From the NCBI GenBank assembly GCA_047456295.1, contig CP179887.1, positions 559,159 to 623,158 of the forward strand: a stretch of DNA of 64,000 nt. Direction: 5' to 3'. The translations under genes and the position numbers were made by a program. The DNA is from Candidatus Nealsonbacteria bacterium. GTDB lineage: Bacteria; Patescibacteriota; Minisyncoccia; Minisyncoccales; JANBVM01. Shown here piece by piece: positions 3,751-28,570 of this stretch. Each line of letters begins with the position of its first letter. The stretch's first letter is position 1. The notes under the pieces were generated by a model. The model made no database searches. It saw nothing but the letters and a program-made list of their open reading frames with translations, and had not been told where the DNA came from.

Positions 3751-3818
3751 AATTAAAAAGGGTGTTTTGTTAAATTCCTGATTAATTATTTTTATTGAGT
3801 TAGTTTTTTTCACCTCAT

Positions 3819-5531: not shown

Positions 5532-5577
5532 AAAAGATAACGATGACAAGAATCTTAACACTAAGTTTGTTGTAATT

Positions 5578-5943
5578 ATGAAAAATATTTTATTAATAGA
5601 GGATGACCCCTTCCTTGTTAACATTTATACTACCAAATTGAACGAGTGTGGTTTTTCAGCAGAGGTTGCTACCGATGGTCGGGCAGGTCTAAGAAAAATA
5701 AAAGAAAAAAAATTTGATTTGATACTTTTGGATATTGTTTTACCCCACATTGATGGATGGCAGGTTCTAAAGGAGCTTGAGAAAACAGGTAAATTAAAGG
5801 ATTTAAAGGTTTTTATTCTTTCCAATCTTGGTCAGAAAGAAGAAGTGGAAAAAGGTTTGAAGATGGGTGTGGTAAGATATTTTATCAAGGCCCATTATAC
5901 TCCGGCCGAGGTGGTGGATGAAATTAGAAAAATATTAAAATAA
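5578..5943 (+). CDS. stand-alone response-regulator receiver domain (CheY/PilH-like)
   Basis: ILLIEDD, LILLDIVLP (phospho-acceptor Asp) and conserved Lys context. 121 aa with no output domain. Confidence 0.85.
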   Translation: MKNILLIEDDPFLVNIYTTKLNECGFSAEVATDGRAGLRKIKEKKFDLILLDIVLPHIDGWQVLKELEKTGKLKDLKVFILSNLGQKEEVEKGLKMGVVRYFIKAHYTPAEVVDEIRKILK

Positions 5944-5950
5944 TAACATT

Positions 5951-7018
5951 ATGTCAAACTACGTTTCTCAACTTAAAAAACTCCTTGAATTAACCATTAA
6001 AGAACAGGCTTCAGATTTACATCTCTCAGTGGGTCACTCCCCGGTTATGAGAATTGCCGGTCGTCTTATCCCTTTATTAAAAGAAAAAAAGCTTTCTCCT
6101 GAAGACACCAAGAATCTTGCTTTTACCCTTATGACCGATAGCCAGAGAAAAGAATTCCTGAAAGAAAAGGAGATTGACTTTTCCTATAAATTTGAAGAAA
6201 AAGCTCGCTTCAGGATAAACATATTCTTTCAGAAAGGGTATGTCTCTTGCGCCCTGAGATTTGTGCCAGCTAAAATTAAAACCATTGATGAGCTTAACCT
6301 CCCCCCGATTTTACACGAGTTTGCAAAGGCCAGCCAGGGTTTTGTTTTGGTCTGTGGTCCCTCGTCTCAGGGAAAATCAACAACCTTGGCAGCCTTAATT
6401 GACGAGATTAATCATACTAGGACCGATCACGTGGTAACCATTGAAGACCCCATTGAATATGTTTTTACTCCTGATAAGGCCATCATTGATCAGAGAGAGG
6501 TAGGTGAAGATACCCTGAGTTTTGCCAGGGCCCTTCGTTCCACCTTTCGTCAGGACCCTGATGTAATTATGGTAGGAGAAATGAGGGATCCAGAGACAAT
6601 GGCTACAGCCATTACAGCAGCTGAAACCGGTCACCTGGTTTTTGCTACCTTGCATACCAATTCTGCTGCCCAGACAATCCATCGAATCGTTGATTCCTTC
6701 CCTCCCCAGCAGCAGAATCAGATCAGGGTTCAGTTCTCAGGATCTCTGTTGGGGGTGGTTTCCCAACGATTACTACCCAGGATTAAAGGAGGATTGATAC
6801 CTGCCTGTGAAGTCATGATTTCTACTCCTGCTGTTGCCAATCTGATCCGGGAAAACAAGATCCATGAAATTCCTATGTTTATTGAAACCAATCTTGAGGT
6901 AGGAATGATTTCTTTGAATCGCTCTTTAGCCGATTTAGTAAAAAGAAAAGAAATCTCTTTGGAAAGCGCCCTCAATTATTCTCTTTCACCAAGCGAACTA
7001 AGAATACTTATACGTTAG
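5951..7018 (+). CDS. pilT: type IV pilus retraction ATPase PilT
   Basis: ASDLHL, Walker A GPSSQGKST, IMVGEMRD, ATLHTNSAAQTIHRI. 355 aa. Confidence 0.9.
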   Translation: MSNYVSQLKKLLELTIKEQASDLHLSVGHSPVMRIAGRLIPLLKEKKLSPEDTKNLAFTLMTDSQRKEFLKEKEIDFSYKFEEKARFRINIFFQKGYVSCALRFVPAKIKTIDELNLPPILHEFAKASQGFVLVCGPSSQGKSTTLAALIDEINHTRTDHVVTIEDPIEYVFTPDKAIIDQREVGEDTLSFARALRSTFRQDPDVIMVGEMRDPETMATAITAAETGHLVFATLHTNSAAQTIHRIVDSFPPQQQNQIRVQFSGSLLGVVSQRLLPRIKGGLIPACEVMISTPAVANLIRENKIHEIPMFIETNLEVGMISLNRSLADLVKRKEISLESALNYSLSPSELRILIR

Positions 7019-7025
7019 CTAATTA

Positions 7026-8228
7026 ATGAAATTCAATTATCAGGTCAGAACCAAAGAAGGAGAGATTCAGACAGGGATAGTGGAGGCTTCTTCAAAAGAC
7101 GCTGCTCTTTCTCTTTTGCAAAAACACGGATTTTACGTCACCTATCTTGAGAAGGCCAAGCTTCCTTTTTATGCCAGGGGTCTGGAGCTTTTTAGAGGCA
7201 TCACTGTAAGGGACATTGTTTTATTTTCCAGACAATTGGCAATGATGTTTACAGCAAAGGTTTCCCTGGTGGAAGCCTTGAGGGTTTTGGCCAGCCAGAT
7301 CAAGAACCTGGAGTTTCAAGCAAAAATTTTAAATCTATCTGAAGAAGTAGAAGGAGGAACAGCTTTTTCAAAAGCCCTCTCCCTTCATCCCAAGATATTT
7401 TCTGTCCTTTATATTTCAATAATTAAGGCTGGAGAAGTCTCAGGTAAACTATCTGAATCCCTTAATTATCTGGCCGATCACCTGGAAAGGGAATATCATT
7501 TATCATCTAAAACAAAAGGAATACTTATATATCCCTCTTTTATTGTGTTATTGGTTGTTCTGGTTTTCACCTTAATGATTTATACGGTTATTCCTCAGCT
7601 AAAATTGGTACTTGAGGAAAGTGGAGTTGACATACCGATAATTACTCGGTATGTCATCGCAGCCTCTGAATTTTTAAGGGTCTATGGTTTTATTTTCATT
7701 TTGGGATTCTTTATTTCTTTATTCTTGCTCTTTCGATATTACAAGACAGAAAGAGGGAAGGATTTTCTTGATAAGATATTTATTAGATTACCGATCCTGG
7801 GTACCATTTTGAAAACAATATATCTTTCCAGGTTCGCAGAAAATCTTTCTACCTTAATCTCAGGAGGCTTAATGATTACTCAAGCCCTTGATCTTTGCGC
7901 CAATCTTATTGGTAGTTCAGTTTATAAAAAGGCAGTTCTTTCAACAATGGAAGAGGTGAGAAAAGGGGTACCCATATCATCCTCCCTGGCTCTTTTTCCG
8001 GATATTTTTTCCCCGGTTTTCGTTCAGATGACACTGGTAGGAGAAAAAACAGGAAGTTTAGATACCAGTTTAATGCAGATTGCCACCTTTTATCAGGTAG
8101 AGGTTGAAAGGGGAATTACCAATATATTGAGTATTCTGGAACCTGTTCTGATTATCACTTTAGGAATTATGGTCGGGGGATTGATGTTTTCCATTTTAAT
8201 GCCTCTTTATCAAATGATGTCTATTTAG
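7026..8228 (+). CDS. pilC: type IV pilus platform protein PilC/GspF
   Basis: Two GspF-type repeats with interspersed TM helices. 400 aa, located after pilT. Confidence 0.9.
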   Translation: MKFNYQVRTKEGEIQTGIVEASSKDAALSLLQKHGFYVTYLEKAKLPFYARGLELFRGITVRDIVLFSRQLAMMFTAKVSLVEALRVLASQIKNLEFQAKILNLSEEVEGGTAFSKALSLHPKIFSVLYISIIKAGEVSGKLSESLNYLADHLEREYHLSSKTKGILIYPSFIVLLVVLVFTLMIYTVIPQLKLVLEESGVDIPIITRYVIAASEFLRVYGFIFILGFFISLFLLFRYYKTERGKDFLDKIFIRLPILGTILKTIYLSRFAENLSTLISGGLMITQALDLCANLIGSSVYKKAVLSTMEEVRKGVPISSSLALFPDIFSPVFVQMTLVGEKTGSLDTSLMQIATFYQVEVERGITNILSILEPVLIITLGIMVGGLMFSILMPLYQMMSI

Positions 8229-8244
8229 TTTCTTGACAGGGATA

Positions 8245-8253
8245 TGTTATAAT
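8245..8253 (+). promoter_or_regulatory. extended -10 element (TGTTATAAT) upstream of the pilin gene
   Basis: TGn-TATAAT with a TTGACA nearby at 8233-8238, though that spacing is too short to be a canonical -35. Implies a leader of about 140 nt. Confidence 0.35.
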
Positions 8254-8335
8254 AAATATCATAAGAAGAATTGTGTTTTAGAATAATTGATTCTTGCTTT
8301 ATTCAAATTAAAAAATAAAAAAAGTTGTTAAAAAT

Positions 8336-8355
8336 TTAAAGGTCGAATCCTTTAA
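8336..8355 (+). other. leader hairpin TTAAAGG-N6-CCTTTAA upstream of the pilin gene
   Basis: 7-bp stem with a 6-nt loop. It ends 46 nt before the ATG at 8401. Its arms match those of the hairpin at 16661. Confidence 0.35.
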
Positions 8356-8400
8356 TCATCACTCAATAGATATTAAACATAAATAATAAAAATAATTAAT

Positions 8401-8877
8401 ATGATTAAAAAAAATAAAGGTTTCACCTTAATTGAGCTTTTGGTGGTTATAGCTATTATAGGGACTCTGTCTGGGATTGTTCTGGTTTCTTTGGGAGGAG
8501 CAAGAAGTAAAGCCAGGGACGCAAACAGACAATCTGATATGAGGCAGGTAATTACTGCTCAAGAAATGTATTATCTTGATAACGATGAATATCTCGCTAC
8601 TAGTTCTGTAGATTATATACCTCAAATCGGGGAATATCTGGTGGCCTTATATGATCCTCAGGAGAGCCAAGGTGTGCATTATAAATGGATAGACAATACT
8701 ACCGACCATCAGAAATTCTGTGCCTATGCTACCTTAGAGAATGTAGGAGATTGTGTTGGAGATGCCAGCAATACCCGTTATTTCACTTCTTCTCCAAATG
8801 GAACCGGAATATATTGCGGTATTGCAGAGTCAGCTTTTCCCACTCTTACCGATTGTTATTCAAAAGGCTCTTACTAA
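8401..8877 (+). CDS. type IV (major) pilin with class III signal peptide
   Basis: [21 protein letters not shown] prepilin motif. 158 aa, followed by a strong terminator. Confidence 0.85.
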
Positions 8878-8902
8878 TACAAGATATTTATTCTTCTAGG
8901 GA

Positions 8903-8933
8903 ACTGGCGGGAAAAATTTCCCGTCAGTTTTTT
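8903..8933 (+). terminator. Rho-independent terminator after the pilin gene
   Basis: Stem of about 11 bp (ACTGGCGGGAA/TTCCCGTCAGT, one G-U pair) followed by TTTTTT. Confidence 0.8.
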
Positions 8934-8986
8934 ACATTTTATTTAAAATGCTAAAATAAAGTTGTGTTTTTCTAATTTAATTTAAA

Positions 8987-9799
8987 ATGAGATTCTTAAT
9001 TTATCTTTTTTCCTTTTCTTTTGGATTGATAGTGGGGAGTTTTTTAAACTGCGTGATTTACAGACTTCATATTGGTAAGGGGTTTTTGGAGGGAAGATCC
9101 TACTGCCCCAGCTGTAAACACATGTTAACCTGGCAGGATTTAATTCCTGTTTTGAGTTTTTTAATTTTAAGGGGTAGGTGTAGATATTGTAAAAAGCCCA
9201 TTTCCATTCAATATCCTCTGGTGGAATTTACTACTGGAGTTTTATTCACCTTTATAGTTTTTCAAAATATAACTTCATTGTTTTACGGTTCTGTAATTTC
9301 AAGCCTTTTAAATATTTTTTTCTTGTTTCTTGTCTCTTGTTTTTTAATTATTATCTTTGTTTATGATTTAAAACACTATATTATTCCTGACAAGGTAATC
9401 TATCCTGCCATACTGGCAGTTGCCAGCCGGTATCTACTAGCTGATGTTTTTTTAAATCTTTATACGAGAGACGAGCTGGTGAATATTGTTTATTCTGCCC
9501 TGGGAGCAGGAGCCTTTTTTTTGGCAATAGTGTTGTTTTCTCGGGGAAAAGGAATGGGGATGGGAGATGTGAAGCTATCTTTTTTTATGGGATTGCTGCT
9601 TGGCTTCCCAAATATTTTAGTAGCTTTATTTTTAAGCTTTTTTATTGGAGCTACAGTGGGAGTGATATTGATTGTTCTTAGAAAAAGGAGTTTTAAATCA
9701 GAAGTTCCCTTTGCTCCATTCTTGGTTACAGGAACCTTTCTGGTAATGTTTTTCAGTGAAGAGATAATAGATTATCTTAATTTAATTTTGCTAAAATAA
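8987..9799 (+). CDS. pilD: prepilin peptidase PilD (A24 family)
   Basis: N-terminal CPSC...CRYC motif. Catalytic Asp contexts YDLKHYIIPD and GMGMGDVKL. C-terminal VPFAPFL. Confidence 0.85.
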   Translation: MRFLIYLFSFSFGLIVGSFLNCVIYRLHIGKGFLEGRSYCPSCKHMLTWQDLIPVLSFLILRGRCRYCKKPISIQYPLVEFTTGVLFTFIVFQNITSLFYGSVISSLLNIFFLFLVSCFLIIIFVYDLKHYIIPDKVIYPAILAVASRYLLADVFLNLYTRDELVNIVYSALGAGAFFLAIVLFSRGKGMGMGDVKLSFFMGLLLGFPNILVALFLSFFIGATVGVILIVLRKRSFKSEVPFAPFLVTGTFLVMFFSEEIIDYLNLILLK

Positions 9800-10903: not shown

Positions 10904-11383
10904 ATGCCAAAACTAAACATTAATAAATCAGAAAACAAAATAGTTATTTCTGTAAACCCTAAGCTTTACCCATTAGAGTCTGTCTACGGGGCAGCTTATG
11001 TTTTTTTAGATAGAGCCTACGTTTTTCTAGATGGTGATTCTAAAAAAGAAATCTACGTTCATCTAAAAGGAAAGAAGAAACTTACAGATGGAGACATAGA
11101 GAATTTGGCAGATGAGTTTCTTAATGAATTGTTGAATTACAGCTTGCGGTATCAGATTTCCAAGGATAACCGTCAGATTAGAGAATATATAGTGGGAGCT
11201 GCCCTAATAGGTGCCTCAGGAGAGAACATCGACAAATCAATGGAATCAGATGAAAAGGATTGGAAAAAGGATCCTTTGGGAATTGCAGTTCCCTGGGAAG
11301 AAAAGTACGCAAAAAGAGATGGTACAAAAAAGAAAGAACCTCCTTTAAAAAGAGCAGTTGGACAAAAGGATGGTAAAAAATAG
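10904..11383 (+). CDS. hxsD: HxsD-like protein (His-Xaa-Ser system), long form with a Lys/Glu-rich tail
   Basis: ADEFLNELLNYSLRY resembles the LLNDYxLRE signature I recall for TIGR03976. Located upstream of HxsB-like and HxsA-like genes. Confidence 0.55.
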   Translation: MPKLNINKSENKIVISVNPKLYPLESVYGAAYVFLDRAYVFLDGDSKKEIYVHLKGKKKLTDGDIENLADEFLNELLNYSLRYQISKDNRQIREYIVGAALIGASGENIDKSMESDEKDWKKDPLGIAVPWEEKYAKRDGTKKKEPPLKRAVGQKDGKK

Positions 11384-11389
11384 AGCATT

Positions 11390-11596
11390 ATGACTATTGT
11401 TTTTAATAAACAATTTTATCATCTGCAGGCTATAAAAAAAGCAATTGAGGCTTATAAAGAATTGGCTGTCTTTAACGTCAAAGAAAAAGATAATAATATT
11501 GAGATTGACATAGATGGGGTGGATAAAGATGTTAAAGACGTTATTAAAGACGAATTTTGCAACTATGTATTGGCAGAAACCAAAAAGTTTACATAG
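11390..11596 (+). CDS. second, short HxsD-like protein
   Basis: 68 aa ending in KDEFCNYVLAETKK, a degenerate form of the same motif. Alignable by eye with the N-terminal half of the 10904 product. Confidence 0.45.
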   Translation: MTIVFNKQFYHLQAIKKAIEAYKELAVFNVKEKDNNIEIDIDGVDKDVKDVIKDEFCNYVLAETKKFT

Positions 11597-11620
11597 TAGC
11601 TTTGTATATTTTTTATCATT

Positions 11621-13081
11621 ATGTTGTCAGATTCAAATAAGATTAAATTAAACAGGGAAAAGGTAGGTTTTTGCCGTTTTAAGAAACTAGATGATAAATA
11701 TCTATTAACCAATGATGTGGGATATTATTATTTTTTAGAACCTGATAAATTTAAAGATTTTATGGAGGGAAAACTAAAAAGAGAAAGTGATATTTATCAA
11801 GAATTGAAAGAGAAAGGGTTTATCAAGGATGATTTTAACATAGATGAAATGGTCAAGACATGTAGCTCCTGTAATATTTCCTCAATTGGTGGCCCTTCCC
11901 TTCATATCATAGTTGTTACCTTGAGGTGTAATTTTAAGTGCATCTATTGTCAGGCAAGTCGTCGTTCAATAGAAGAGAAGCAATATGACATGGATGTAAA
12001 AACAGCAAAAAGGGTTGTTGATACAATATTTGAAAGCCCGAGCAATGTTATTACAATAGAGTTTCAGGGTGGAGAACCATTGGTCAACTGGCCGGTGGTT
12101 AAATTCATTGCTGAATACGCAAGAGAAAAAAACAAAACGGAAAAAAAGAAACTTTTAATTTCTCTGGTTTCTAATTTCAGCTTGATGACAGAGGAAAAAT
12201 ACAAATTCTTAACTGAAAAAGAGGTCAGTCTCTGTACTTCTCTGGATGGCCCTGAAGAGCTTCAGAATAGAAATCGGCCTTTGCTCAATGGAAATGGTTA
12301 TCGGCTTACTACCTCGTGGATTAATAAAATAAAAAAAGATGAGCAGGATAAAGCAAAAAAAGGTCATACCTGTTATTATTTATCTGCCCTCGCTACCATA
12401 TCCAGGTTTTCTCTTAAATATCCAAAAGAGATTATAGACGAATATGTTAAATGGGGATTCAGGGGCATACATTTACGACCCTTAAGCTTTTTAGGTTTTT
12501 CTGGCGGCCCAGCTAAGGAAAAGATTGGTTATTCACCTGAAGAATTTATGGAATTTTGGCGGGAAGCAATGGACTACATTATAGAGATTAATGTCAGAGG
12601 GAAACTATTCTACGAACGGGGGGTGAGGATAATGCTCACAAAGATTTTAACAGACAGGGATCCTGGTTTCCTTGATTTACGTTCACCTTGTGGAGCGGCA
12701 ATTGGTCAGTTGGTCTATAACCATGATGGTAAGGTTTATACCTGTGATGAAGGGAGAATGGTGAAAGATGATACTTTTATGCTCGGAGATGTAAATAAAG
12801 ATAGTTATAAAAAGATAATCTCTAATCCAAAAGTCAAGACAATGGTTACAGCTTCAATATTAGATAATCTATCATGCGATTACTGTGTTTATAAACCTTA
12901 TTGTGGTGTATGCCCGGTTCTGGCTTACGCTCTTTACGGGAATCTTTTTCCCCAGGTAATAAATACTGACCGTTGTAAGGTGCATAAAGAAATGTTTGAC
13001 TATGTTTTTAGAAAATTGCAAAATGAAAGAACAGGTAAGACTTTTAATCAATGGGTAACATTGCCGAGGACAAAAGCTTGA
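11621..13081 (+). CDS. hxsB: radical SAM/SPASM enzyme, HxsB-like
   Basis: CNFKCIYC (CX3CX2C), FQGGEP, SPASM motifs CGAAIGQLVYNHDGKVYTCDE and CDYCVYKPYCGVCP, and an N-terminal extension of about 95 aa. The 486-aa size and the context fit HxsB (TIGR03978). Confidence 0.7.
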   Translation: MLSDSNKIKLNREKVGFCRFKKLDDKYLLTNDVGYYYFLEPDKFKDFMEGKLKRESDIYQELKEKGFIKDDFNIDEMVKTCSSCNISSIGGPSLHIIVVTLRCNFKCIYCQASRRSIEEKQYDMDVKTAKRVVDTIFESPSNVITIEFQGGEPLVNWPVVKFIAEYAREKNKTEKKKLLISLVSNFSLMTEEKYKFLTEKEVSLCTSLDGPEELQNRNRPLLNGNGYRLTTSWINKIKKDEQDKAKKGHTCYYLSALATISRFSLKYPKEIIDEYVKWGFRGIHLRPLSFLGFSGGPAKEKIGYSPEEFMEFWREAMDYIIEINVRGKLFYERGVRIMLTKILTDRDPGFLDLRSPCGAAIGQLVYNHDGKVYTCDEGRMVKDDTFMLGDVNKDSYKKIISNPKVKTMVTASILDNLSCDYCVYKPYCGVCPVLAYALYGNLFPQVINTDRCKVHKEMFDYVFRKLQNERTGKTFNQWVTLPRTKA

Positions 13082-13142
13082 GAGATGAATGGTGGAACCA
13101 AGAATAGCCCGGGATGAAGAAATGCTATTTTATTGAAATCTA

Positions 13143-13151
13143 TGGTATAAT
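13143..13151 (+). promoter_or_regulatory. extended -10 element (TGGTATAAT) upstream of the HxsA-like gene
   Basis: TGn-TATAAT lies 31 nt upstream of the ATG at 13182. Confidence 0.35.
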
Positions 13152-13181
13152 AATATAATAATATTAAAATCATATAAAAAT

Positions 13182-14675
13182 ATGTTAATAAGAAAACTAC
13201 CATCTATAAAAAAGAATATTGAAGCATTTCTCACAAGCGAGGAAGGAAAGATAAGCAAAAAGAGTGCTTTGGAATTAGGTATGGGGGTGGCTATGTTAGG
13301 GACGATGCTGACCCAAACAGCTTCAGCCGTCCACAAGAGCTTTTCTCAAGCTGGCTCTCCCTCCTCTCATGCCAGTCATCTCTCGAAAGGATCAGGTGGT
13401 ATGGCTGCTGTGCATTCGTCTGGTGGACACACTTCCCATATTTCCCATGTTTCTCATAGCTCTCATAGTTCTCATACCTCTCACAGCTCCCACAGTTCCC
13501 ACGGGTCCCACGGCTCCCACAGCTCCCACGGCTCCCACGGTTCCCACAGTTCCCACAGCTCCCACGGCTCCCACGGTTCCCACAGTTCCCACGGTTCCCA
13601 CGGTTCCCACGTTTCCCACAGCAGTTGCAGTTGCGTCGCCTGCTGTCCCTTTGTTTCAGTCTGGAACGGCAGAAGGTTTGTTATTGATAACAATATCTTA
13701 CCTGAATCTGAAAATATATTGAGGAAAGAGACTATTATTGAAGAATTATACAAATTAGAAGTAATACCCAAAATTAAGAACAAAAAGTATCTTCTTAGGG
13801 TAATGGAGTTTGAGAGAGAACACTCTTATTTCCACAATTTTGAATTCATTAAAATTATTCATCCAAAAGAATCAAGCATTGGCATTATCAATAATAAAAT
13901 AGTTGCTTTCAAAAATCTTGTCCTGCCCTCTTCAATTAAAGATAAAAAAGGCAAAGATTGGACAAAGAAACTGTCTGCTTTAAACGATAAAGCATTCTTT
14001 AAAGGCGAGAAAGGCGAGATATTAAATATCAGATTTGATAACATTAAAGACTTAAGAAACTGTCACCTGATTTTTAGAGCCAGCCTTAGAGGAGATTATC
14101 CCAGAATTAAAGAAGTAGAACAGAAACTGGAAAGGATTGTTTCTGGAAACAGATTAATTGATTCCTTGAAAAAGATAGGAGTAGCTTCTATAGCAGTGGC
14201 AAATATTGTTAAAGAAGCAAAGGACGCTAAAGGTGCTTTGGCGAAAGTTGTGCCAAGCATCCATCTATCTGTTATATATACTGATAAAAATAAAGAAAAG
14301 CCAGTTGAGATTGTCCATCCTAGAGAGAAGCTCTCTTTGGGTCTGGTTGATATTTCCCAATATGTTAAAAAAAGTCAGAAATCTTTATTTTTGAGAGCGA
14401 AGTGGACCAGACCTCACAACGTTAGTTTTGTTGGTCTGACAGACACAGAGGGCTTATCTGAAGTTTCTAATATCAGCCAGGAATCTATTAAATTATCCTG
14501 TCTTAAACATTCAGAGAACAAAAATATTGACAAAACTTATTTAAAGAAGGGAAAGGTAGAACTGATTCCCGGGCAATACATCAAGTTGGAGTTCCCTGCC
14601 AAAAAGGAGAAAGCTGAATCTAATCAGAGAACATCCTTTGTCCTGAAGTCTAAGGGATACTATACTCCTTTTTAA
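13182..14675 (+). CDS. hxsA: His-Xaa-Ser repeat protein, HxsA-like
   Basis: 22 uninterrupted H-x-S units (residues 83-148) are followed by CSCVACC and a C-terminal domain of about 340 aa. The N-terminus has a basic stretch, then a hydrophobic segment ending in ASA. Confidence 0.75.
   Translation: MLIRKLPSIKKNIEAFLTSEEGKISKKSALELGMGVAMLGTMLTQTASAVHKSFSQAGSPSSHASHLSKGSGGMAAVHSSGGHTSHISHVSHSSHSSHTSHSSHSSHGSHGSHSSHGSHGSHSSHSSHGSHGSHSSHGSHGSHVSHSSCSCVACCPFVSVWNGRRFVIDNNILPESENILRKETIIEELYKLEVIPKIKNKKYLLRVMEFEREHSYFHNFEFIKIIHPKESSIGIINNKIVAFKNLVLPSSIKDKKGKDWTKKLSALNDKAFFKGEKGEILNIRFDNIKDLRNCHLIFRASLRGDYPRIKEVEQKLERIVSGNRLIDSLKKIGVASIAVANIVKEAKDAKGALAKVVPSIHLSVIYTDKNKEKPVEIVHPREKLSLGLVDISQYVKKSQKSLFLRAKWTRPHNVSFVGLTDTEGLSEVSNISQESIKLSCLKHSENKNIDKTYLKKGKVELIPGQYIKLEFPAKKEKAESNQRTSFVLKSKGYYTPF
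13428..13625 (+). repeat. in-frame 9-nt tandem repeat (22 units) encoding the H-x-S units
   Basis: Units 1-6 use CAT/TCT codons. Units 7-21 are CAC-NNN-TCC and differ only in the middle codon. Units 7-13 and 14-20 form a 63-nt higher-order duplication. Confidence 0.95.
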
Positions 14676-16733: not shown

Positions 16734-17639
16734 ATGGCAATGAAACGAATTGATTTAAAAATAGGTTTCCAATGTAATAATCGCTGTAGATTTTGTGTTC
16801 AAGGAAATAAAAGAGAGACAGCTTCTAATAAATCTAATAAAGAGGTAAAGGCAATTTTAAAAAAAGAAGTAAAAAACCATCAAGGGGTTGTTTTTACAGG
16901 AGGAGAGCCTACTGTTAGAAAAGAACTTATAAGATGGGTAGAGTATTCTAAAGAATTAGGTTATAAAACAATTCAAATCCAAACTAATGGAAGAATGTTT
17001 TCTTATAAGAGTTTTTGTGAAAAAATGATTAAAGCTGGTGCTAATGAATTTTCACCAGCTCTTCACGGTTCCACGGCTGAAATCCAGGATTATTTAACCC
17101 GGGTTTCAGGAAGTTTTAACCAAACCACTATGGGAATTAAAAACCTGAAATCCTTGGGACAATATGTTTTAACCAACTCAGTAATTACTAAACCAAATTA
17201 TAAGGATTTGCCAAATTTAGCTGAATTGTTGGTAGGTTTAAGGGTTAACCAATTCCAGTTTGCTTTTATGCATATTAGCCAGATTATTGCTCACAATCCT
17301 GAATTAATTAAAGAGATTGTACCAAGACACTCAGAGGTAGAACCCTATGTTAAAAAAGGATTAGAAATTGGAATTAAAGCAGGAATTGAAGTAATGACAG
17401 AAGCCATTCCTTATTGTTTTATGAAAGGATACGAGCAGTATATAGCTGAAAAAAAGATTCCTGACACCAGTGTTTTTGATAATGATATAGAATTAGATGA
17501 TTACGGTTATTATCGTAAAACACAAGGAAAAGCTAAAGGAGTTAATTGTTCCTCCTGTAAATATAATAATATCTGTGAAGGACCCTGGAAGGAATATCCG
17601 GAAATTTTCGGTTGGGATGAATTTAAGCCAATTAAATAA
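16734..17639 (+). CDS. compact radical SAM enzyme, island paralog 1
   Basis: CNNRCRFC, FTGGEP, QTNGRMFSY, HG...GSFNQT, and a C-terminal IPYC plus CSSCKYNNICEGPWKEY...FGWDEFKPIK. Confidence 0.8.
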   Translation: MAMKRIDLKIGFQCNNRCRFCVQGNKRETASNKSNKEVKAILKKEVKNHQGVVFTGGEPTVRKELIRWVEYSKELGYKTIQIQTNGRMFSYKSFCEKMIKAGANEFSPALHGSTAEIQDYLTRVSGSFNQTTMGIKNLKSLGQYVLTNSVITKPNYKDLPNLAELLVGLRVNQFQFAFMHISQIIAHNPELIKEIVPRHSEVEPYVKKGLEIGIKAGIEVMTEAIPYCFMKGYEQYIAEKKIPDTSVFDNDIELDDYGYYRKTQGKAKGVNCSSCKYNNICEGPWKEYPEIFGWDEFKPIK

Positions 17640-19378: not shown

Positions 19379-20347
19379 ATGTCTAAAGAATTTATTAAAA
19401 AGTCAAAAAGAGACAAAGATGCCAGGCCTCTGGACCAAAGAAATTATGGTAAGGTAGAAAGCCTTTGTATTTTTAGATGTAATTGTAATTGTATTATGTG
19501 TTCAGTAGCCAATGCAATTAAGAAGAATAGCAGGGATAAAAACGAAGGTATAAAACCATTTGAAGAGGTCAAAAAGGATATTGATATAGCGGTGCGAGCC
19601 AAGGCGAACACCTTTGCTTTTTCTGGCGGTGAGCCGACATTGAGAAAAGATTTAATTGAGCTTGTAAAATATGCCAAAAAAAAGATTCCTAATATTGAAA
19701 TACAGTCAAACGGAAGATTGTTTTATTACAAGGGTTATTGTGAAGAATTAATTCGAGCCGGAGTGAATATTTTTGTGGTTTCTTTTTACTCTCCATTGGA
19801 AGATGTTCATGACAGAATAATGGGCGTTAAAGGGGCTTATAGACAAACTCTTCAGGGTTTGAAGAATTTAGAAGAATTAAAACAGACAGTTAAGATAAAT
19901 ATAGTTATTTTAAAGTTAAACTATCGTCATCTTTCAGGGTTAGTGAAATTTTTACTTAAATTAGGAGTTAGAGAATTTCGATTTATCTACGTTACTATAG
20001 AAGGAAATGTGCTTGATAATCCAGAAGATATTGTGGCTAAAATGAGTGTAGTTGCTCCCTATCTCAAAGAAGCGTTAAGAATTGGATTAAAAAAAGTTCC
20101 TTGTTATGTTTACAATATGGTTCCCTGCTTACTCCCCGATTATGAAGAATCAATTAATGATATATTTCAATCTGATACTTATCTTCGTGGCCCTGATTTT
20201 GAATGTTCTATAGATGAAAATAGAAGAAAAAATAAAGTGAAATCTAAAAAATGTAAGGAATGTAAATATAATTCTTATTGTTACGGGATCTGGAAAAATT
20301 ATGCTAAAGTCTTTGGTCTTGGAGAATTAAAACCAGTTAAAGACTAA
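19379..20347 (+). CDS. compact radical SAM enzyme, island paralog 2
   Basis: CNCNCIMC, FSGGEP, QSNGRLFYY, and C-terminal CKECKYNSYCYGIWKNY...FGLGELKPVKD. Confidence 0.8.
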   Translation: MSKEFIKKSKRDKDARPLDQRNYGKVESLCIFRCNCNCIMCSVANAIKKNSRDKNEGIKPFEEVKKDIDIAVRAKANTFAFSGGEPTLRKDLIELVKYAKKKIPNIEIQSNGRLFYYKGYCEELIRAGVNIFVVSFYSPLEDVHDRIMGVKGAYRQTLQGLKNLEELKQTVKINIVILKLNYRHLSGLVKFLLKLGVREFRFIYVTIEGNVLDNPEDIVAKMSVVAPYLKEALRIGLKKVPCYVYNMVPCLLPDYEESINDIFQSDTYLRGPDFECSIDENRRKNKVKSKKCKECKYNSYCYGIWKNYAKVFGLGELKPVKD

Positions 20348-24899: not shown

Positions 24900-25109
24900 A
24901 TGAAACAGGACAAAAAATACATTATAACCTATAAAAGTCGGGAGCACTATGAAGTCTTAGGTTGGGTTATAGCTTCCTCCCTGGAAGAAGCAAAAAGCAA
25001 GGCTCAACAAGAATTGTTAAAGGAAGCAAAGCATTATAATGTGTCTGAGGCTGAGATTGCCGAATGGAAAGATGGCGATGAATTAGTTTTTCTGAAAAAA
25101 ATAGAATAA
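24900..25109 (+). CDS. small protein A (69 aa), paralog of 26263..26484
   Basis: Its stop lies 1 nt before the ATG of the SPASM enzyme at 25111. It shares a core of about 55 aa with small protein B. Confidence 0.65.
   Translation: MKQDKKYIITYKSREHYEVLGWVIASSLEEAKSKAQQELLKEAKHYNVSEAEIAEWKDGDELVFLKKIE
24916..25079 (+). repeat. dispersed direct repeat, copy 1 (core of small protein A)
   Basis: Hand alignment with 26297..26460 gives 164 nt with about 10 mismatches. Confidence 0.85.
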
Positions 25110-25110
25110 T

Positions 25111-26208
25111 ATGTTTAGACCAAAATCTTTTCATCTCCAGTGGCATATTACAGAAAGATGTAATATGCATTGCAAACATTGCTATACTAACACGCTATTT
25201 TTAAAAAACGAATTATCTCTTCAAGAATTGATTAAAATTTTAGAGCAGTATCTGGAGCAGATTAAAATCTGGGGATTGCCCAGAAGAGATGTTAGGATAT
25301 CATTTACTGGTGGAGAGCCATTTGTAAGGAAAGATTTTTTTGACCTTTTACAGAGATGTTATGAGAATCAAGATATAACCCGATATGGAATCTTAACCAA
25401 TGGGACATTGTTAACTCAAGGCATTATAGATAGATTGAAAGCTCTAAAGATAAGTTATGTTCAGGTAAGTCTGGAAGGAACGAAAAAAATAAACGATTAC
25501 ATCAGAGGAAAAGGCACTTTTAAAAAGATAATAAGAGCAATCAGATTATTGAAAGAAGGAGGTATACCAACAATGATTTCAATGACAGTAAGTAAAATAA
25601 ATATCCAAGAGGTGCCAGCAATAATTAATCTTAGTAATGATTTAAAGGTTAATTTTTTAGGCATTAGGCAACTTGTTCCTCTTGGAAGGGGTAAAGAAAT
25701 AAAAAAATCAGTTTTGACTCCTGAAGAAGTTCGGAAATTATTTTTATATGTTTTGAAAATGAAGAGAGACTTTAAAAGTAATGTTGGGCTGGGTTGTGAA
25801 GATGGTATATTAAGTCAAGAAATGCATTATCTTCCTATTGGTTGTTCTGCTGGTTATGCTAGTTTTACAGTTCTTCCTAACGGTGATGTTTATCCTTGCC
25901 GGAGACTACCTCTCCTTTCAGGAAATCTATTGAAACAATCATTTAGTGATATTTACTATAATTCTAAACAGCTTCAAAGATTAAGGAACTTAAATAATAT
26001 TAATGATGTTTGTCGAAGTTGCCCCTATTTTAACGAGTGTCATGGTGGAGCTAAATGTATAAGTTATAGCTATTTTGGAAATCCTTTTGCTCCGTCGCCT
26101 CAATGTTGGAGACTGTTTGAAAAAATGCCTAATCCAGATTTAAAATGGAAAAGTAGCAAAAATGGGAAAGAGGAAGACTTAGACCAGAGATGGGTTGAAA
26201 GAGATTAA
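25111..26208 (+). CDS. radical SAM/SPASM enzyme
   Basis: CNMHCKHC, FTGGEPF, CSAGYASFTVLPNGDVYPC, CRSCPYFNECHGGAKC. Confidence 0.85.
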   Translation: MFRPKSFHLQWHITERCNMHCKHCYTNTLFLKNELSLQELIKILEQYLEQIKIWGLPRRDVRISFTGGEPFVRKDFFDLLQRCYENQDITRYGILTNGTLLTQGIIDRLKALKISYVQVSLEGTKKINDYIRGKGTFKKIIRAIRLLKEGGIPTMISMTVSKINIQEVPAIINLSNDLKVNFLGIRQLVPLGRGKEIKKSVLTPEEVRKLFLYVLKMKRDFKSNVGLGCEDGILSQEMHYLPIGCSAGYASFTVLPNGDVYPCRRLPLLSGNLLKQSFSDIYYNSKQLQRLRNLNNINDVCRSCPYFNECHGGAKCISYSYFGNPFAPSPQCWRLFEKMPNPDLKWKSSKNGKEEDLDQRWVERD

Positions 26209-26262
26209 GTTACGATGATTTTTTATAAAATTTATTCTATAATGTAATAAATTATTAAGAAT

Positions 26263-26484
26263 ATGGCAACAAAAAAATTACCCTCTATAAAAAAAGAATA
26301 CATTATAACCTATAAAAGTCGGGAGCACTATGAGGTCCTGGGTTGGGTTATAGCTTCCTCCCTGAAAGAAGCAAAAAGCAAGGCTCGACAGAAATTGTTA
26401 AAGGAAGCAAAGTATTATAATGTGTCTGAGGCTGAGATTGGAGAATGGAAAGATGGCGATAATATTCATTTTAATATTTCCTAG
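26263..26484 (+). CDS. small protein B (73 aa), paralog of 24900..25109
   Basis: Its stop lies 2 nt before the ATG of the radical SAM gene at 26487. Its N-terminal KKLPSIKK is shared with the HxsA-like protein. Confidence 0.65.
   Translation: MATKKLPSIKKEYIITYKSREHYEVLGWVIASSLKEAKSKARQKLLKEAKYYNVSEAEIGEWKDGDNIHFNIS
26297..26460 (+). repeat. dispersed direct repeat, copy 2 (core of small protein B)
   Basis: See copy 1. Confidence 0.85.
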
Positions 26485-26486: not shown

Positions 26487-27410
26487 ATGCCTGATATTTG
26501 TATTTGGAACAGATGCAATAATAACTGTATAATGTGTACCAACCCTGTTGGTTTTCAAAGTAAAAAAACCTCAAAGGATTATTCTTTTGAAAAGATAACT
26601 GAGAGGGTTCAGACAACTATTGATTTGTGGAACAAGAATCAAGAAAACCTTAATTTTACTGGCGGTGAACCCACCACCCATCCTCGTTTTTTAGAATTGT
26701 GGTATTGGTTTAGAAGAAATTTCCCCAGAAAAAAATTGGTTCTGGCAAGCAACGGCAGGATGTTTAGTTATCCCTGGTTTACAAAAAGTTTTCTCAAGAT
26801 AAATAATCTGGCCATTGAAATAGCTATTTTAGGTCCCAATAAAGAACTGCACGATGCAATTACAGGAACTAAAGGTAGTTTTGAACAAACAGTAAAAGGT
26901 ATTTATAATATCTTAAAATACAGAAAGAGACTTCAAGAGTTAGAACTAAGATTGATTCTCATTAAGCAGAATTATGAATTAACAGGAGAGATTCTTGATT
27001 TAATTGCCAATAATTTTTCTTCAGCAGACAGGGTAATTATGATTTTCCCTGAACCAGAAGGCAAATGCGGGAAGAATTATAAGAGAGTGGGCATTACTTA
27101 CAAACAGGTAAGAAAAAAAATCACTTCTGTAATGGAAAGATTTAATGATAAATTTAAAGACTTGCGTCTTTATCATTTCCCTTTATGTACCCTTGGACCT
27201 GAATTATGGAAATATACCTGGATAACCCAGAGGAGGGATGAAGTAACTTATTTACCAAGTTGTAATGATTGTTCATATAAAAAGTTTTGTTGCGGTATTC
27301 ACAAAGATTATTTAAAGATTGTTGGAGATAAAGAATTTAAACCTGTTAAAACAGACTTAAGATTTAAGATCAAAGACAGTCTCTATCATCCAATTATAGA
27401 TGTTTTGTAA
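26487..27410 (+). CDS. compact radical SAM enzyme, island paralog 5
   Basis: CNNNCIMC, FTGGEP, ASNGRMFSY, GSFEQT, and C-terminal FPLC plus CNDCSYKKFCCGIHKDY...VGDKEFKPVK. Confidence 0.8.
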   Translation: MPDICIWNRCNNNCIMCTNPVGFQSKKTSKDYSFEKITERVQTTIDLWNKNQENLNFTGGEPTTHPRFLELWYWFRRNFPRKKLVLASNGRMFSYPWFTKSFLKINNLAIEIAILGPNKELHDAITGTKGSFEQTVKGIYNILKYRKRLQELELRLILIKQNYELTGEILDLIANNFSSADRVIMIFPEPEGKCGKNYKRVGITYKQVRKKITSVMERFNDKFKDLRLYHFPLCTLGPELWKYTWITQRRDEVTYLPSCNDCSYKKFCCGIHKDYLKIVGDKEFKPVKTDLRFKIKDSLYHPIIDVL

Positions 27411-27412
27411 TT

Positions 27413-28570
27413 ATGTTCCCATCATTTTTATCTGATTTGCCACTTTTAATCCCTCTTTTTGTTATTGGAGGAATCTGTAGCTATACGGATATTAGATATG
27501 GAAAAATCTTTAATAAGTGGATTGTTACAGGACTTTTTTGGGGCATTTCTTTTTATATCTTTCTTTTTTTCTATAATTTCTTTTTCCTTTTTCAAACATC
27601 AAACATCAAATATCTAATGGAGGTGGGTACAAATACCTTAATTTCTTTTTTGGTGGGTTACCTCCTGTGGAATTTTAACCTATGGTCTGCTGGAGATGCT
27701 AAGTTTTTTTCTCTGTGCGCTTTCTTGTTGCCCTTAAAATTTTATTCAAAGAGCTATTTAACCTTTTTTCCTTCTTTCAATCTCTTGGTTAATCTTTTTG
27801 TTCCTTTACTTTTGATTTTAACATTTACTGCTTTTTTAATGGGAATAAAAGAACTATTCAATTATAGAAAAAGATTAAAGAATATTAAAAAGGTAGATAT
27901 TAAAAAAGTGTTTTCTAGGTTTAACACCTTGGGTAAAAAGTTCTCTCAAGTATTTTTGAATTTTATTTTTATATTTATTCTTTTTCAACAGACAGCTTCT
28001 TTTAGAGAGTTTATTCCAGGGGAAGAATTTTTGTTTAATCCCCTCACCTTTTTTTTCTTATTATTTGTTCTTTCAGGTTATCTTTCTAAGATTCAAACAA
28101 AGAAAAAGTGGATTGGTTACTTTATCAATGGAACGGTACTCTTGTACTTTTCTTATTTAATTTTTTCTGGTAAAATTGAGATATTGAAGCTCATTTTAAA
28201 GAATACCCTGTTTTTTATGGTGTTAATAACTTTCTTGCGTCAGGTCTTAAGTTTTTATATAGAAAAGAAAGAGGTAAAAAAGATAAAAATCAAGGATATT
28301 CAAAAAGGAGCAGTAATTTCTAAGAATGAACTGGGTTTAATATTAAGAGGGCTGAAGCAAAAAGGAATGGATAAATCTTTTGGGAAAATAATAGCTGAAG
28401 GATTAAACGAAAACCAGGTTAAAATCATTAAGGATTTATTTACTGAAAACCCTAATATAGAGATAAAAATCTACAAGACATTCCCTTTTGCTCCCTTCAT
28501 GCTTTTATCAGTTGTTATCTCTATTTTAACCGAGAGTTCCTTTATTGATTTATTAATTTTAAAGTTATAA
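27413..28570 (+). CDS. atypical A24-family (prepilin/preflagellin-peptidase-like) aspartyl protease with a large insertion
   Basis: YTDIRYGKIFN (first Asp context), WSAGDAKFF (GDxK second Asp context) and C-terminal FPFAPFML. It has no N-terminal Cys motif. About 230 extra residues, including a soluble segment, sit before the last helix. Confidence 0.65.
   Translation: MFPSFLSDLPLLIPLFVIGGICSYTDIRYGKIFNKWIVTGLFWGISFYIFLFFYNFFFLFQTSNIKYLMEVGTNTLISFLVGYLLWNFNLWSAGDAKFFSLCAFLLPLKFYSKSYLTFFPSFNLLVNLFVPLLLILTFTAFLMGIKELFNYRKRLKNIKKVDIKKVFSRFNTLGKKFSQVFLNFIFIFILFQQTASFREFIPGEEFLFNPLTFFFLLFVLSGYLSKIQTKKKWIGYFINGTVLLYFSYLIFSGKIEILKLILKNTLFFMVLITFLRQVLSFYIEKKEVKKIKIKDIQKGAVISKNELGLILRGLKQKGMDKSFGKIIAEGLNENQVKIIKDLFTENPNIEIKIYKTFPFAPFMLLSVVISILTESSFIDLLILKL

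What the first reader, a model, noticed from the sequence alone, without database searches (positions are those of the whole stretch)
13141..13214. HxsA and small protein B share the N-terminal heptad KLPSIKK
HxsA begins MLIRKLPSIKKN. Small protein B (26263) begins MATKKLPSIKKE.

The match also holds at the nucleotide level (aaaCTaCCaTCTATAAAAAAgaAT versus aaaTTaCCcTCTATAAAAAAagAA). Each gene is preceded by a TATAAT element roughly 20-30 nt upstream.

Seven identical residues at the extreme N-terminus of two otherwise unrelated island proteins suggests a common recognition tag, for an enzyme, the A24-like protease or an export step. Small protein A lacks it.
Basis: seen in the sequence. Interest (0 to 1): 0.6.

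Follow-up and report, generated by a model that had tools for sequence, protein, structure and literature searches.

The report
HxsA leader fragment fused onto neighbour
The seven shared residues are real, but they are shared because the start of the small gene was replaced by a copy of the start of an hxsA-type gene; this looks like an ordinary gene-fusion scar, with no evidence of a purpose-built common tag.

Summary
HxsA (13182-14675) starts MLIRKLPSIKKN and small protein B (26263-26484) starts MATKKLPSIKKE. The heptad sits at the same offset in both, and 18 of its 21 nucleotides are identical.

In HxsA the heptad is the first conserved block of the known HxsA3/HxsA4-type N-terminal leader, K-[IL]-P-x-I-K-K-x-I-x-x-F-L-x-x-E-E-G-K-I-x-K-K followed by a hydrophobic segment. 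A profile of this leader finds 559 protein clusters, always matching at the N-terminus.

In B the heptad is specific to this genome. All 11 other members of B's family lack it, paralog A included. B carries only block 1 of the leader.

The similarity is DNA homology. It runs through the start codon and is closest (20/21, 23 nt exact) to the hxsA of another Nealsonbacteria genome. In relatives, the radical SAM/SPASM gene that precedes B is followed by hxsA after a 51-94 nt spacer or directly.

B is therefore a chimera: hxsA codons 1-11 joined to small-protein codon 4 onward, at an A-run/GAATA microhomology. The ancestral ATG of the small gene is gone, so the captured piece supplies B's start codon and probably its promoter. 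A tag function in B is not excluded, but nothing supports it. Interest is low to moderate.

The parts
13121..13181 (+). hxsB-hxsA spacer segment that aligns with the spacer upstream of B. It holds TATAAT at 13146-13151 and 13154-13159.
   Evidence: Sequence. Gapped local alignment with 26214-26300. A TTGAAA-18-AATAAT promoter-like site at 13133-13162.
13182..14675 (+). HxsA4-type His-Xaa-Ser repeat protein, 497 aa. It has a leader, a hydrophobic segment, HxS repeats, a Cys cluster and a ~340-aa C-terminal domain without a Pfam match.
   Evidence: NF038313 HxsA4 scores 55.2 bits against a cut-off of 55, with profile positions 1-91 on residues 5-93. Homologs P0013-P0039.
13194..13214 (+). Heptad KLPSIKK in HxsA, which is block 1 of the conserved leader.
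   Evidence: Leader logo.
13215..13262 (+). Leader block 2 (NIEAFLTSEEGKISKK), present in HxsA and absent from B.
   Evidence: F16 99%, L17 95%, E20 97%, G22 93%, K26 92% over 153 representative sequences. Alignment A2/A3.
13263..13328 (+). Hydrophobic, signal-peptide-like segment SALELGMGVAMLGTMLTQTASA. The Gly at profile position 33 is conserved.
   Evidence: Translation. G33 81%.
10904..13081 (+). hxsD (10904-11383), hxsD-like (11390-11596) and hxsB (11621-13081), the maturation genes upstream of hxsA.
   Evidence: TIGR03976 at 60.5 bits, NF038315 at 71.4 bits and TIGR03978 at 491 bits, all above their cut-offs.
24900..25109 (+). Small protein A, 69 aa, paralog of B. It keeps the ancestral 5' flank and start (MKQDKKY) and has a divergent C-terminal tail.
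   Evidence: The body is 154/165 nt identical to B.
25111..26208 (+). Radical SAM/SPASM gene, 365 aa. In relatives its orthologs lie immediately upstream of hxsA.
   Evidence: 53% identical to L008:2075-3139. 68% and 64% identical to the L038 and L039 matches. Downstream genes.
26209..26262 (+). 54-nt spacer upstream of B with TATAAT at 26238-26243. It is colinear with the rSAM/SPASM-hxsA spacer of relatives.
   Evidence: The L038 spacer is 51 nt with the ATG at the same offset from the heptad.
26263..26484 (+). Small protein B, 73 aa, a chimera of hxsA-type codons 1-11 and the small-protein body from ancestral codon 4.
26275..26295 (+). Heptad KLPSIKK in B.
   Evidence: Identity is 20/21 nt to the L002 hxsA and 18/21 to the window's own hxsA.
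26289..26300 (+). Junction zone: an A7 run plus GAATA. hxsA (ATAAAAAAGAATA) and the ancestral small gene (CAAAAAAAAGAATAC) share this microhomology.
26487..28570 (+). HxsC-like radical SAM (26487-27410) and a 385-aa A24-like membrane protein (27413-28570). They sit downstream of B and are conserved partners of the small-protein family.
   Evidence: TIGR03977 at 172.9 bits, below the cut-off of 267.9. PF01478 weak hit. The same neighbourhood appears in L001, L002, L008 and L011.

Best explanation
Small protein B is a chimeric gene. Its spacer-proximal region, start codon and first 11 codons descend from the 5' end of an hxsA-type gene. In related genomes that gene lies directly downstream of the radical SAM/SPASM gene which precedes B here.

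A rearrangement joined hxsA codon 11 to codon 4 of a resident small-protein gene, at an A-run/GAATA microhomology. It could have been a deletion, or a template-switch or insertion of an rSAM/SPASM-plus-hxsA-5' segment. The small gene's own ATG was lost, so the captured piece now supplies B's start codon and, by inference, its promoter. This places B and the downstream HxsC-like and A24-like genes under hxsA-type expression signals.

In HxsA the heptad is functional. It is block 1 of the conserved HxsA3/A4 leader that precedes a signal-peptide-like segment. By analogy with the E. coli HXS system, the leader is presumably read by the HxsB/C/D maturation and processing machinery before export.

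In B the heptad is most likely a passenger. It forms an unstructured 10-residue tail ahead of the beta-beta-alpha-beta body.

Shown here: DNA homology, synteny, leader conservation, and absence of the heptad in B's relatives. Inferred: the rearrangement mechanism, promoter capture, neutrality of the tail, and the role of the leader.
For: (1) DNA homology.
- B's 5' region 26209-26300 aligns with hxsA 5' regions with scores of 58 (the window's own hxsA), 63 (L004), 70 (L002) and 41 (L038). Shuffle nulls are 20-25 +/- 3-5, and 0 of 2000 shuffles reach the observed score.
- Against 55 real gene starts in the window the scores average 20.3 +/- 3.7, with a maximum of 30.
- B shares 23 consecutive nt with the L002 hxsA (AAAAAATTACCCTCTATAAAAAA), so it matches at synonymous sites where the window's own hxsA differs.
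- The ATG is at the same offset, and the 24 nt around it match 14-16/24 against a null of 9.3 +/- 2.3.

(2) Synteny.
- rSAM/SPASM orthologs are followed by an hxsA-type gene in L038/L041 (68-69% identical, 51-nt spacer), L007/L039 (64%, 94-nt spacer) and L008-L010 (53%).
- In the window the same gene is followed by a 54-nt spacer, ATG, 3 codons and the heptad, after which the sequence switches to small-protein sequence.

(3) B's family.
- P0002-P0012 and the L040 protein start MKQKKEYIITY or similar. None has the heptad.
- A keeps the ancestral upstream flank and B keeps the ancestral downstream flank.
- B has no alternative start codon.

(4) Leader.
- A 52-position profile of the HxsA N-terminus finds 559 clusters at E<=1e-3, all matching at residues ~1-60, mostly of small His/Ser/Cys-rich proteins.
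- In the logo P7 is 99%, K10 93%, K11 92%, F16 99%, L17 95%, E20 97% and G22 93%.
- These proteins hit the NCBIfam HxsA3/A4 models from profile position 2.

(5) Structure. In the AlphaFold model of B, residues 1-10 are coil with low confidence and the body starts at residue 11.

(6) Background. In E. coli, HxsA undergoes HxsB/C/D-dependent N-terminal processing and export (PMC13128918).
Against: - The spacer upstream of about -12 is not significantly similar to hxsA spacers on its own: 16 against a null of 18.4 for L038, and z about 3 with rank 1 of 56 for the window's own hxsA. Promoter co-transfer therefore rests on colinearity.
- The consensus scan did not call a -35/-10 promoter at B's TATAAT.
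- The left junction (A's tail, ELVFLKKIE) and a possible remnant of rSAM/SPASM in the hxsB-hxsA spacer could not be shown to be homologous. The exact rearrangement path and the donor are therefore unknown.
- No sister genome with or without the chimera was found, so persistence under selection cannot be judged.
- Within B, the variable leader residues 2-4 have diverged while residues 5-11 have not. This pattern is also what selection on the motif would give, although the sample is only 11 codons.
Confidence: 0.75

Rival explanations
1. The heptad is a functional shared docking tag. Block 1 of the HxsA leader is sufficient to bind a component of the island, such as the HxsB N-terminal region, HxsD, HxsD-like or the A24-like protein. 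B would have retained it because it brings B to the same machinery.
For: - Block 1 is strongly conserved in the leader family (P7 99%, K10/K11 92-93%).
- B keeps all 7 residues intact while leader residues 2-4 diverged.
- The tail is exposed and unstructured in the model.
- B's family always sits beside HxsC-like and A24-like genes.
Against: - Eleven other family members from at least five contexts function without the heptad.
- B lacks the more strongly conserved block 2 and the hydrophobic segment.
- The match reaches into non-coding DNA and synonymous sites, which a copy event explains without any selection.
- Only one genome carries the chimera.
Confidence: 0.12
2. The copied module is kept for co-regulation. 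The hxsA-type promoter and translation-initiation region, including the first codons, was selected because it expresses B, the HxsC-like gene and the A24-like gene together with hxsA. On this view the peptide is irrelevant and the nucleic-acid element is not.
For: - TATAAT lies 19-22 nt before the ATG in both genes.
- The ATG offset is identical, and the bases just before the ATG match: TAAGAATATG against TAAAAATATG and TAAGAGTATG.
- The ancestral start of B is lost, so B depends on this module.
Against: - TATAAT occurs upstream of 10 of 57 genes.
- There is no significant similarity in the spacer alone.
- There are no expression data.
- This overlaps with the best explanation and differs only in claiming selection.
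Confidence: 0.1
3. The match is a chance coincidence in a Lys/Ile-rich, AT-rich proteome.
For: Five other unrelated protein pairs in the window share a 7-mer, and one pair shares an 8-mer. KK before EYIITY is ancestral in B's family, so only KLPSI is new.
Against: - A same-offset N-terminal run of at least 7 arose in 2 of 2000 shuffles.
- The DNA alignment scores lie 7-15 sd above the nulls, and there is a 23-nt exact match to a related hxsA.
- The synteny with rSAM/SPASM-hxsA predicts this location.
Confidence: 0.03

Closest known systems
NCBIfam HxsA3 (NF038309) and HxsA4 (NF038313) His-Xaa-Ser repeat proteins
   Same: The window's HxsA reaches the HxsA4 cut-off. Both models begin at the heptad. 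The leader found here, K-[IL]-P-x-I-K-K...F-L-x-x-E-E-G-K-I-x-K-K plus a hydrophobic segment, is what these models encode.
   Different: This HxsA is 497 aa with a ~340-aa C-terminal domain not covered by the models. Many leader-bearing relatives score below the curated cut-offs and carry other cargo, such as Hint-like or Asp/Asn/Tyr-rich regions. B is not a member.
Canonical HXS antiphage system of Pseudomonadota (HxsD-HxsB-HxsC-HxsA; Li et al., Nat Commun 2026, PMC13128918)
   Same: HxsD, HxsB and HxsC-like radical SAM enzymes accompany a His-x-Ser repeat protein with an N-terminal export signal. In E. coli the N-terminus of HxsA is processed in an HxsB/C/D-dependent way before periplasmic action.
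   Different: - No TIGR03979 hit and no peptidoglycan-binding domain was found.
- The leader is different and much longer.
- The gene content is expanded: two HxsD-type genes, five HxsC-like paralogs, a SPASM enzyme, glycosyltransferases, a small-protein family and an A24-like membrane protein.
- The host is a CPR bacterium, and the island sits inside a type IV pilus cluster.
- An antiphage role was not tested here.
RiPP leader peptides read by maturases
   Same: A conserved N-terminal segment is shared by diverse cores and encoded next to radical SAM maturases.
   Different: No leader-binding domain was identified here. The HxsA 'core' is a large exported protein, not a short peptide. B has only 7 of about 27 leader residues.
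Chimeric genes formed by 5'-end or promoter capture through microhomology-mediated rearrangement
   Same: B has a new 5' end from another gene, a junction at an 11-12-nt microhomology, loss of the ancestral start codon, and duplication of the flanking gene body (A and B, 93% identical).
   Different: The donor copy and the left junction were not resolved, and the event is known from a single genome.
Class III (type IV pilin-like) signal peptides cleaved by A24 prepilin peptidases
   Same: The HxsA leader is basic and ends in a conserved Gly just before a hydrophobic stretch. The island encodes PilD and a second A24-like membrane protein.
   Different: There is no Glu at +5 and no N_methyl motif hit in HxsA. 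An Ala-x-Ala signal-peptidase-I-like site follows the hydrophobic segment. B has neither the Gly nor the hydrophobic stretch. This resemblance is a lead only.

Membership tests
HxsA4/HxsA3-type His-Xaa-Ser repeat protein (for ORF 13182-14675) | Match to the curated N-terminal model at or above its cut-off | tested here: met
   NF038313 scores 55.2 bits against a cut-off of 55, covering residues 5-93. NF038309 scores 49 bits, below its cut-off of 65.
HxsA4/HxsA3-type His-Xaa-Ser repeat protein (for ORF 13182-14675) | Tandem His-Xaa-Ser repeats after the leader | tested here: met
   The translation shows about 30 HxS units at residues ~83-145.
HxsA4/HxsA3-type His-Xaa-Ser repeat protein (for ORF 13182-14675) | Encoded beside HxsB and HxsD | tested here: met
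   HxsD, HxsD-like and HxsB lie immediately upstream, all above their cut-offs.
HxsA-type leader-bearing protein (for small protein B) | Leader block 1, K-[IL]-P-x-I-K-K | tested here: met
   MATKKLPSIKKE.
HxsA-type leader-bearing protein (for small protein B) | Leader block 2, I-x-x-F-L-x-x-E-E-G-K-I-x-K-K | tested here: not met
   B continues EYIITYKSREHYEVLG. There is no NCBIfam hit.
HxsA-type leader-bearing protein (for small protein B) | Hydrophobic, signal-like segment after the leader | tested here: not met
   There is none in the sequence. The model is a soluble beta-beta-alpha-beta domain.
HxsA-type leader-bearing protein (for small protein B) | Motif conserved among orthologs | tested here: not met
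   None of 11 other family members carries it.
Canonical HXS system (TIGR03976-03979) | HxsA of the TIGR03979 type with a peptidoglycan-binding domain | tested here: not met
   No TIGR03979 hit and no Pfam domain in the ORF.
Canonical HXS system (TIGR03976-03979) | HxsC above the curated cut-off and gene order D-B-C-A | tested here: not met
   The best HxsC-like protein scores 172.9 bits against a cut-off of 267.9. The order here is D-D'-B-A, with the HxsC-like genes 3-13 kb downstream.
Canonical HXS system (TIGR03976-03979) | Antiphage activity and HxsB/C/D-dependent processing of HxsA | not testable with these tools
   Known only for the E. coli system (PMC13128918).
A24 prepilin-peptidase substrate (class III signal) | Gly at -1 before a hydrophobic segment, with Glu at +5 or an N_methyl motif | tested here: inconclusive
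   HxsA has the conserved Gly (81%) before the hydrophobic stretch, but no Glu at +5 and no PF07963 hit. B has none of these.

The most novel reading that the evidence does not exclude
Block 1 of the HxsA3/A4 leader (K-[IL]-P-x-I-K-K) is an autonomous, transferable docking motif. Its capture by small protein B has rewired an accessory protein of the HxsC-like/A24-like module onto the HxsA leader-recognition machinery. That would be a natural experiment showing that seven residues suffice for recognition.
Probability: 0.1. Interest if true: 0.5.

Novelty: new member of a known kind. Interest (0 to 1): 0.25.

Why it matters
The result corrects a tempting reading. The shared N-terminus does not mark two substrates of one enzyme. 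It marks a recent rearrangement that moved a radical SAM/SPASM gene, together with the first 11 codons of hxsA, next to a small accessory gene.

This is useful for annotating such islands. B should be read as a member of the small-protein family with a captured start, not as a second precursor.

The side results may matter more than the heptad:
- The HxsA3/A4-type leader is a large family (559 clusters at 50% identity) attached to varied cargo.
- In Nealsonbacteria the Hxs-like island sits inside the type IV pilus cluster with an extra A24-like membrane protein.
- The only characterised HXS system is an antiphage barrier in Pseudomonadota.

B also offers a ready-made test of whether leader block 1 alone has any binding activity.

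Tried and rejected
- **Remnant of rSAM/SPASM in the hxsB-hxsA spacer.** I looked for a remnant of the rSAM/SPASM 3' end in 13070-13130. It was not significant: score 17 against a null of 15.5-15.8.
- **Origin of A's tail.** I tested whether A's divergent tail (25060-25112) derives from the hxsB-rSAM/SPASM spacer of L038. It was not significant: 17 against 14.5 +/- 2.6.
- **Spacer-only homology.** B's spacer against the L038 spacer was not significant. Against the window's own hxsA spacer it was marginal: 31 against 17.7 +/- 4.2, rank 1.
- **Chimeric junction elsewhere.** I searched for PSIKKEYIITYK, back-translated, in genome contigs and metagenome contigs and found no matches. These collections also did not return the window's own sequence, so the negative result is weak.
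- **Close relatives of rSAM/SPASM.** The search for related loci in genome contigs returned only relatives at 31% identity or less, which were not useful. The metagenome scan was productive.
- **Promoter scan.** The consensus scan supports a -35/-10 pair for hxsA but calls none at B's TATAAT.
- **Frameshifting at B's A7 run.** Considered and rejected by inspecting the sequence: both alternative frames stop within a few codons (sequence).
- **Third DNA match.** The weak match at 29280-29302 on the minus strand lies antisense inside another gene and has 3 mismatches. I treated it as chance.
Full report
**Observation**

The window is from a Candidatus Nealsonbacteria (CPR) genome. The small protein is identical to the NCBI entry ACKKMR_03290 on a 689-kb contig.

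- ORF 13182-14675 (497 aa) begins MLIRKLPSIKKN.
- ORF 26263-26484 (73 aa, 'small protein B') begins MATKKLPSIKKE.
- The paralog 24900-25109 ('A') begins MKQDKKYIITYK.

KLPSIKK occurs only at these two places in all six frames. The heptad codons are 18/21 identical, and all three differences are synonymous. With one extra A in B's A-run, the DNA match continues through GAATA. TATAAT hexamers lie 22 and 30 nt (hxsA) and 19 nt (B) before the ATGs.

**Is it more than chance?**

A shared heptad by itself is not remarkable here. Among 57 window proteins (19,451 aa), five other unrelated pairs share a 7-mer. One example is EKKEVKKI, shared by PilM and the A24-like protein.

Position makes the difference. 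An identical run of at least 7 at the same N-terminal offset appeared in 2 of 2000 composition-matched shuffles.

At the DNA level, B's 5' region (26209-26300) scores 58 against the hxsA 5' region. It scores 20.3 +/- 3.7 (maximum 30) against the 5' regions of 55 other genes in the window, and 24.9 +/- 4.5 against shuffles. TATAAT within 45 nt upstream occurs in 10 of 57 genes, so that element adds little.

**What the heptad is in HxsA**

The island encodes these genes:
- PilD (8987-9799) and a DUF483 protein;
- HxsD (10904-11383), an HxsD-like protein (11390-11596) and HxsB (11621-13081, 491 bits);
- the HxS-repeat protein, followed by a radical SAM enzyme;
- five HxsC-like radical SAM paralogs, glycosyltransferases and a B12-radical SAM enzyme;
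- A, then rSAM/SPASM (25111-26208);
- B, then the best HxsC-like protein (26487-27410);
- an A24-like membrane protein (27413-28570).

The repeat protein reaches the NCBIfam HxsA4 cut-off (55.2 against 55), and the model starts at residue 5, the K of the heptad.

Full-length homologs keep the N-terminus. Examples are MLIKKLPSIKKN, MKKKIPSIKKD, MKKKLPKIKKE and ..KKEIPLIKKN, each followed by I-x-x-FL-x-SEEGKISKK and a hydrophobic stretch.

A 52-position profile of this N-terminus was searched against 1.84 billion representative proteins. It found 559 clusters at E<=1e-3 and 52 at E<=1e-10. Every listed match lies at residues ~1-60 of proteins that are mostly small (median 103 aa) and rich in His, Ser and Cys.

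Over 153 representative sequences the logo reads P7 99%, I9 73%, K10 93%, K11 92%, I13 74%, F16 99%, L17 95%, E20 97%, E21 87%, G22 93%, K26 92% and G33 81%. Ten of the 153 carry KLPSIKK exactly. These proteins hit HxsA3/HxsA4 from profile position 2.

In HxsA the heptad is therefore block 1 of a known, deeply conserved leader. That leader precedes a signal-peptide-like segment, here ...LGMGVAMLGTMLTQTASA.

**What the heptad is in B**

B belongs to a family of 62-87-aa proteins that is a regular member of these islands. It sits next to an HxsC-like radical SAM enzyme and the A24-like membrane protein in L001, L002, L008-10 and L011-12.

None of the 11 other members found has the heptad. The nearest, P0002 (92% identical) and P0003, start MKQKKEYIITYK. 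B has nothing of leader block 2 and no hydrophobic segment.

In an AlphaFold model (11-sequence alignment, mean pLDDT 73.5), residues 1-10 are coil with low confidence. The body is beta(11-18)-beta(23-31)-alpha(34-49)-beta(56-62). Foldseek found no significant PDB match.

**Why the two share it: DNA ancestry**

*The match reaches outside the heptad.* The ATG is at the same offset. The bases just before it read TAAGAATATG in B, TAAAAATATG in the window's hxsA and TAAGAGTATG in the L038 hxsA. The 24 nt around the ATG match 14-16/24, against 9.3 +/- 2.3 for all ATG-anchored 24-mers in the window.

*B is closer to a foreign hxsA than to the window's own.* B is 20/21 identical in the heptad codons to the hxsA of another Nealsonbacteria genome, L002, with 23 nt identical in a row. 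The local alignment scores 70 against 21.1 +/- 3.3 for shuffles. Convergence on a peptide would not reproduce synonymous codon choices and flanking non-coding bases.

*Synteny predicts the location.* Orthologs of the rSAM/SPASM gene that precedes B are followed by an hxsA-type gene:
- in L038 (68% identical; order HxsD, HxsD-like, HxsB, rSAM/SPASM, a 51-nt spacer, then hxsA starting MIIKKLPLIKKH);
- in L041 (same lineage as L038);
- in L007/L039 (64% identical, 94-nt spacer, hxsA = P0015);
- in L008-10 (53% identical; hxsA-type gene starting MKNRLPKIKKNINDFLTEEEG).

In the window the same gene is followed by a 54-nt spacer, ATG, three codons and the heptad. The sequence then switches to the small-protein body at codon 4 of the ancestral gene.

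*The junction.* The switch lies in ATAAAAAAAGAATA (26287-26300). hxsA has ATAAAAAAGAATA there, and the ancestral small gene has CAAAAAAAAGAATAC. This is an 11-12-nt microhomology.

*The two copies of the small gene.* A keeps the ancestral upstream flank and start. B keeps the ancestral downstream flank. Their bodies are 154/165 nt identical. The ancestral ATG is absent from B, and no other start codon is available.

**Most likely history and mechanism**

An rSAM/SPASM-plus-hxsA-5' segment came to lie in front of a copy of the small gene. The hxsA part was joined in frame to that gene at the microhomology, either by deletion or by template switching. This created B = hxsA(1-11)::small protein(4-67).

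The captured segment now supplies B's start codon. By inference from colinearity it also supplies B's promoter. The heptad on B is most likely a passenger.

B's captured segment differs from the resident hxsA at 8 of about 45 positions, while the A and B bodies differ by 7%. This hints that the source was a different hxsA copy, either a lost paralog or a foreign island. With so few sites this is only an indication.

I could not resolve the left junction (A's tail, ELVFLKKIE), and I could not show a remnant of rSAM/SPASM between hxsB and hxsA.

**How the leader probably works in HxsA (inference)**

In the E. coli HXS antiphage system, HxsA needs its signal peptide for periplasmic localisation. 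It also undergoes an N-terminal cleavage and a +8 Da modification, both of which require HxsB, HxsC and HxsD (PMC13128918).

By analogy, the long conserved n-region of the CPR leader (blocks 1 and 2) would be the part read in the cytoplasm by the maturation proteins before export through the hydrophobic segment. The paper places 99.7% of systems in Pseudomonadota and does not cover this variant.

The conserved Gly before the hydrophobic stretch, together with the island's A24-like membrane protein, makes a prepilin-peptidase-like cleavage conceivable. It is untested, and it would not involve the heptad.

**Comparison and verdict**

The HxsA side is a known family feature (NCBIfam HxsA3/HxsA4). 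The B side is an ordinary chimeric gene with a captured 5' end.

A residual possibility, about 0.1, is that block 1 alone still docks B to the leader-reading machinery. B would then be a natural minimal-motif experiment.

- Novelty: new member of a known kind.
- Interest: 0.25.

Noticed in passing
window 1250-9799 and 34452-36247; L002 and L004: The whole Hxs-like island is inserted in a type IV pilus gene cluster. PilM, PilO, PilB, a response regulator, PilT, PilC, a pilin and PilD lie upstream. In L002, N_methyl pseudopilin genes follow the island. The same placement is seen in two other Nealsonbacteria contigs.
   Followed up: partly
P0049-P0194 (hits of the leader profile); e.g. P0140, P0160, P0094, P0153: The HxsA3/A4-type leader heads very different cargos. 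These include HxS or CHSS repeats, Asp/Asn/Tyr-rich low-complexity regions, and C-terminal regions that look Hint/intein-like. There are 559 clusters at 50% identity.
   Followed up: partly
window 13263-13328 and 27413-28570: The leader ends in a conserved Gly (81%) just before a hydrophobic stretch. A 385-aa polytopic protein with a weak Peptidase_A24 hit is a constant neighbour of the small-protein/HxsC-like pair (L001, L002, L008, L011). This may be a dedicated leader peptidase. It is untested.
   Followed up: no
L038:1913-6526; L007; L008:1-3814; window 25111-26208: In relatives the rSAM/SPASM gene sits between hxsB and hxsA. That is the position HxsC holds in the canonical D-B-C-A order. 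In the window it has moved about 12 kb downstream, and L002 lacks it altogether.
   Followed up: partly
window 16734-17639, 19379-20347, 22744-23727, 23794-24732, 26487-27410: Five HxsC-like radical SAM paralogs all end in a similar Cys-rich tail, C-x2-C-x5-C-x-G-x-[WFH]...G-x2-E-[LF]-[KE]-P-[VIL]-K. All score below the HxsC and HxsC4 cut-offs.
   Followed up: no
window 13650-14675; P0017-P0031; L002:4741-4839: The ~340-aa C-terminal domain of this HxsA type has no Pfam match and follows a Cys cluster (SCSCVACCPF). Many database homologs start only after the repeats, and L002 has an assembly gap (a run of N) inside them. The HxS repeat DNA therefore breaks assemblies and gene calls.
   Followed up: no
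window 25078-25113: Small protein A has a divergent C-terminal tail (ELVFLKKIE instead of NIHFNIS), and its stop codon is 1 nt from the rSAM/SPASM start. This is probably the other junction of the rearrangement, but homology to any donor could not be shown.
   Followed up: yes
L040:12-1143: One metagenome contig has the rSAM/SPASM ortholog (59% identical) followed directly by a small-protein gene without the heptad (MKDKEFIITYRS), overlapping it by 11 nt. This is a second, independent way in which these two genes became neighbours.
   Followed up: no
window 29280-29302 (-): A third, weak match to the heptad DNA pattern (3 mismatches, reading PKLPTINK) lies antisense inside the 5' end of the Cys-rich 571-aa ORF 29214-30929. 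It was treated as chance.
   Followed up: no
window 29214-30929 and 31068-34439: Downstream of the island lie a 571-aa Cys-rich secreted-looking protein without a Pfam hit and a 1123-aa PKD-domain protein. Both positions are conserved in L002, where the first carries AF_1625_C.
   Followed up: no
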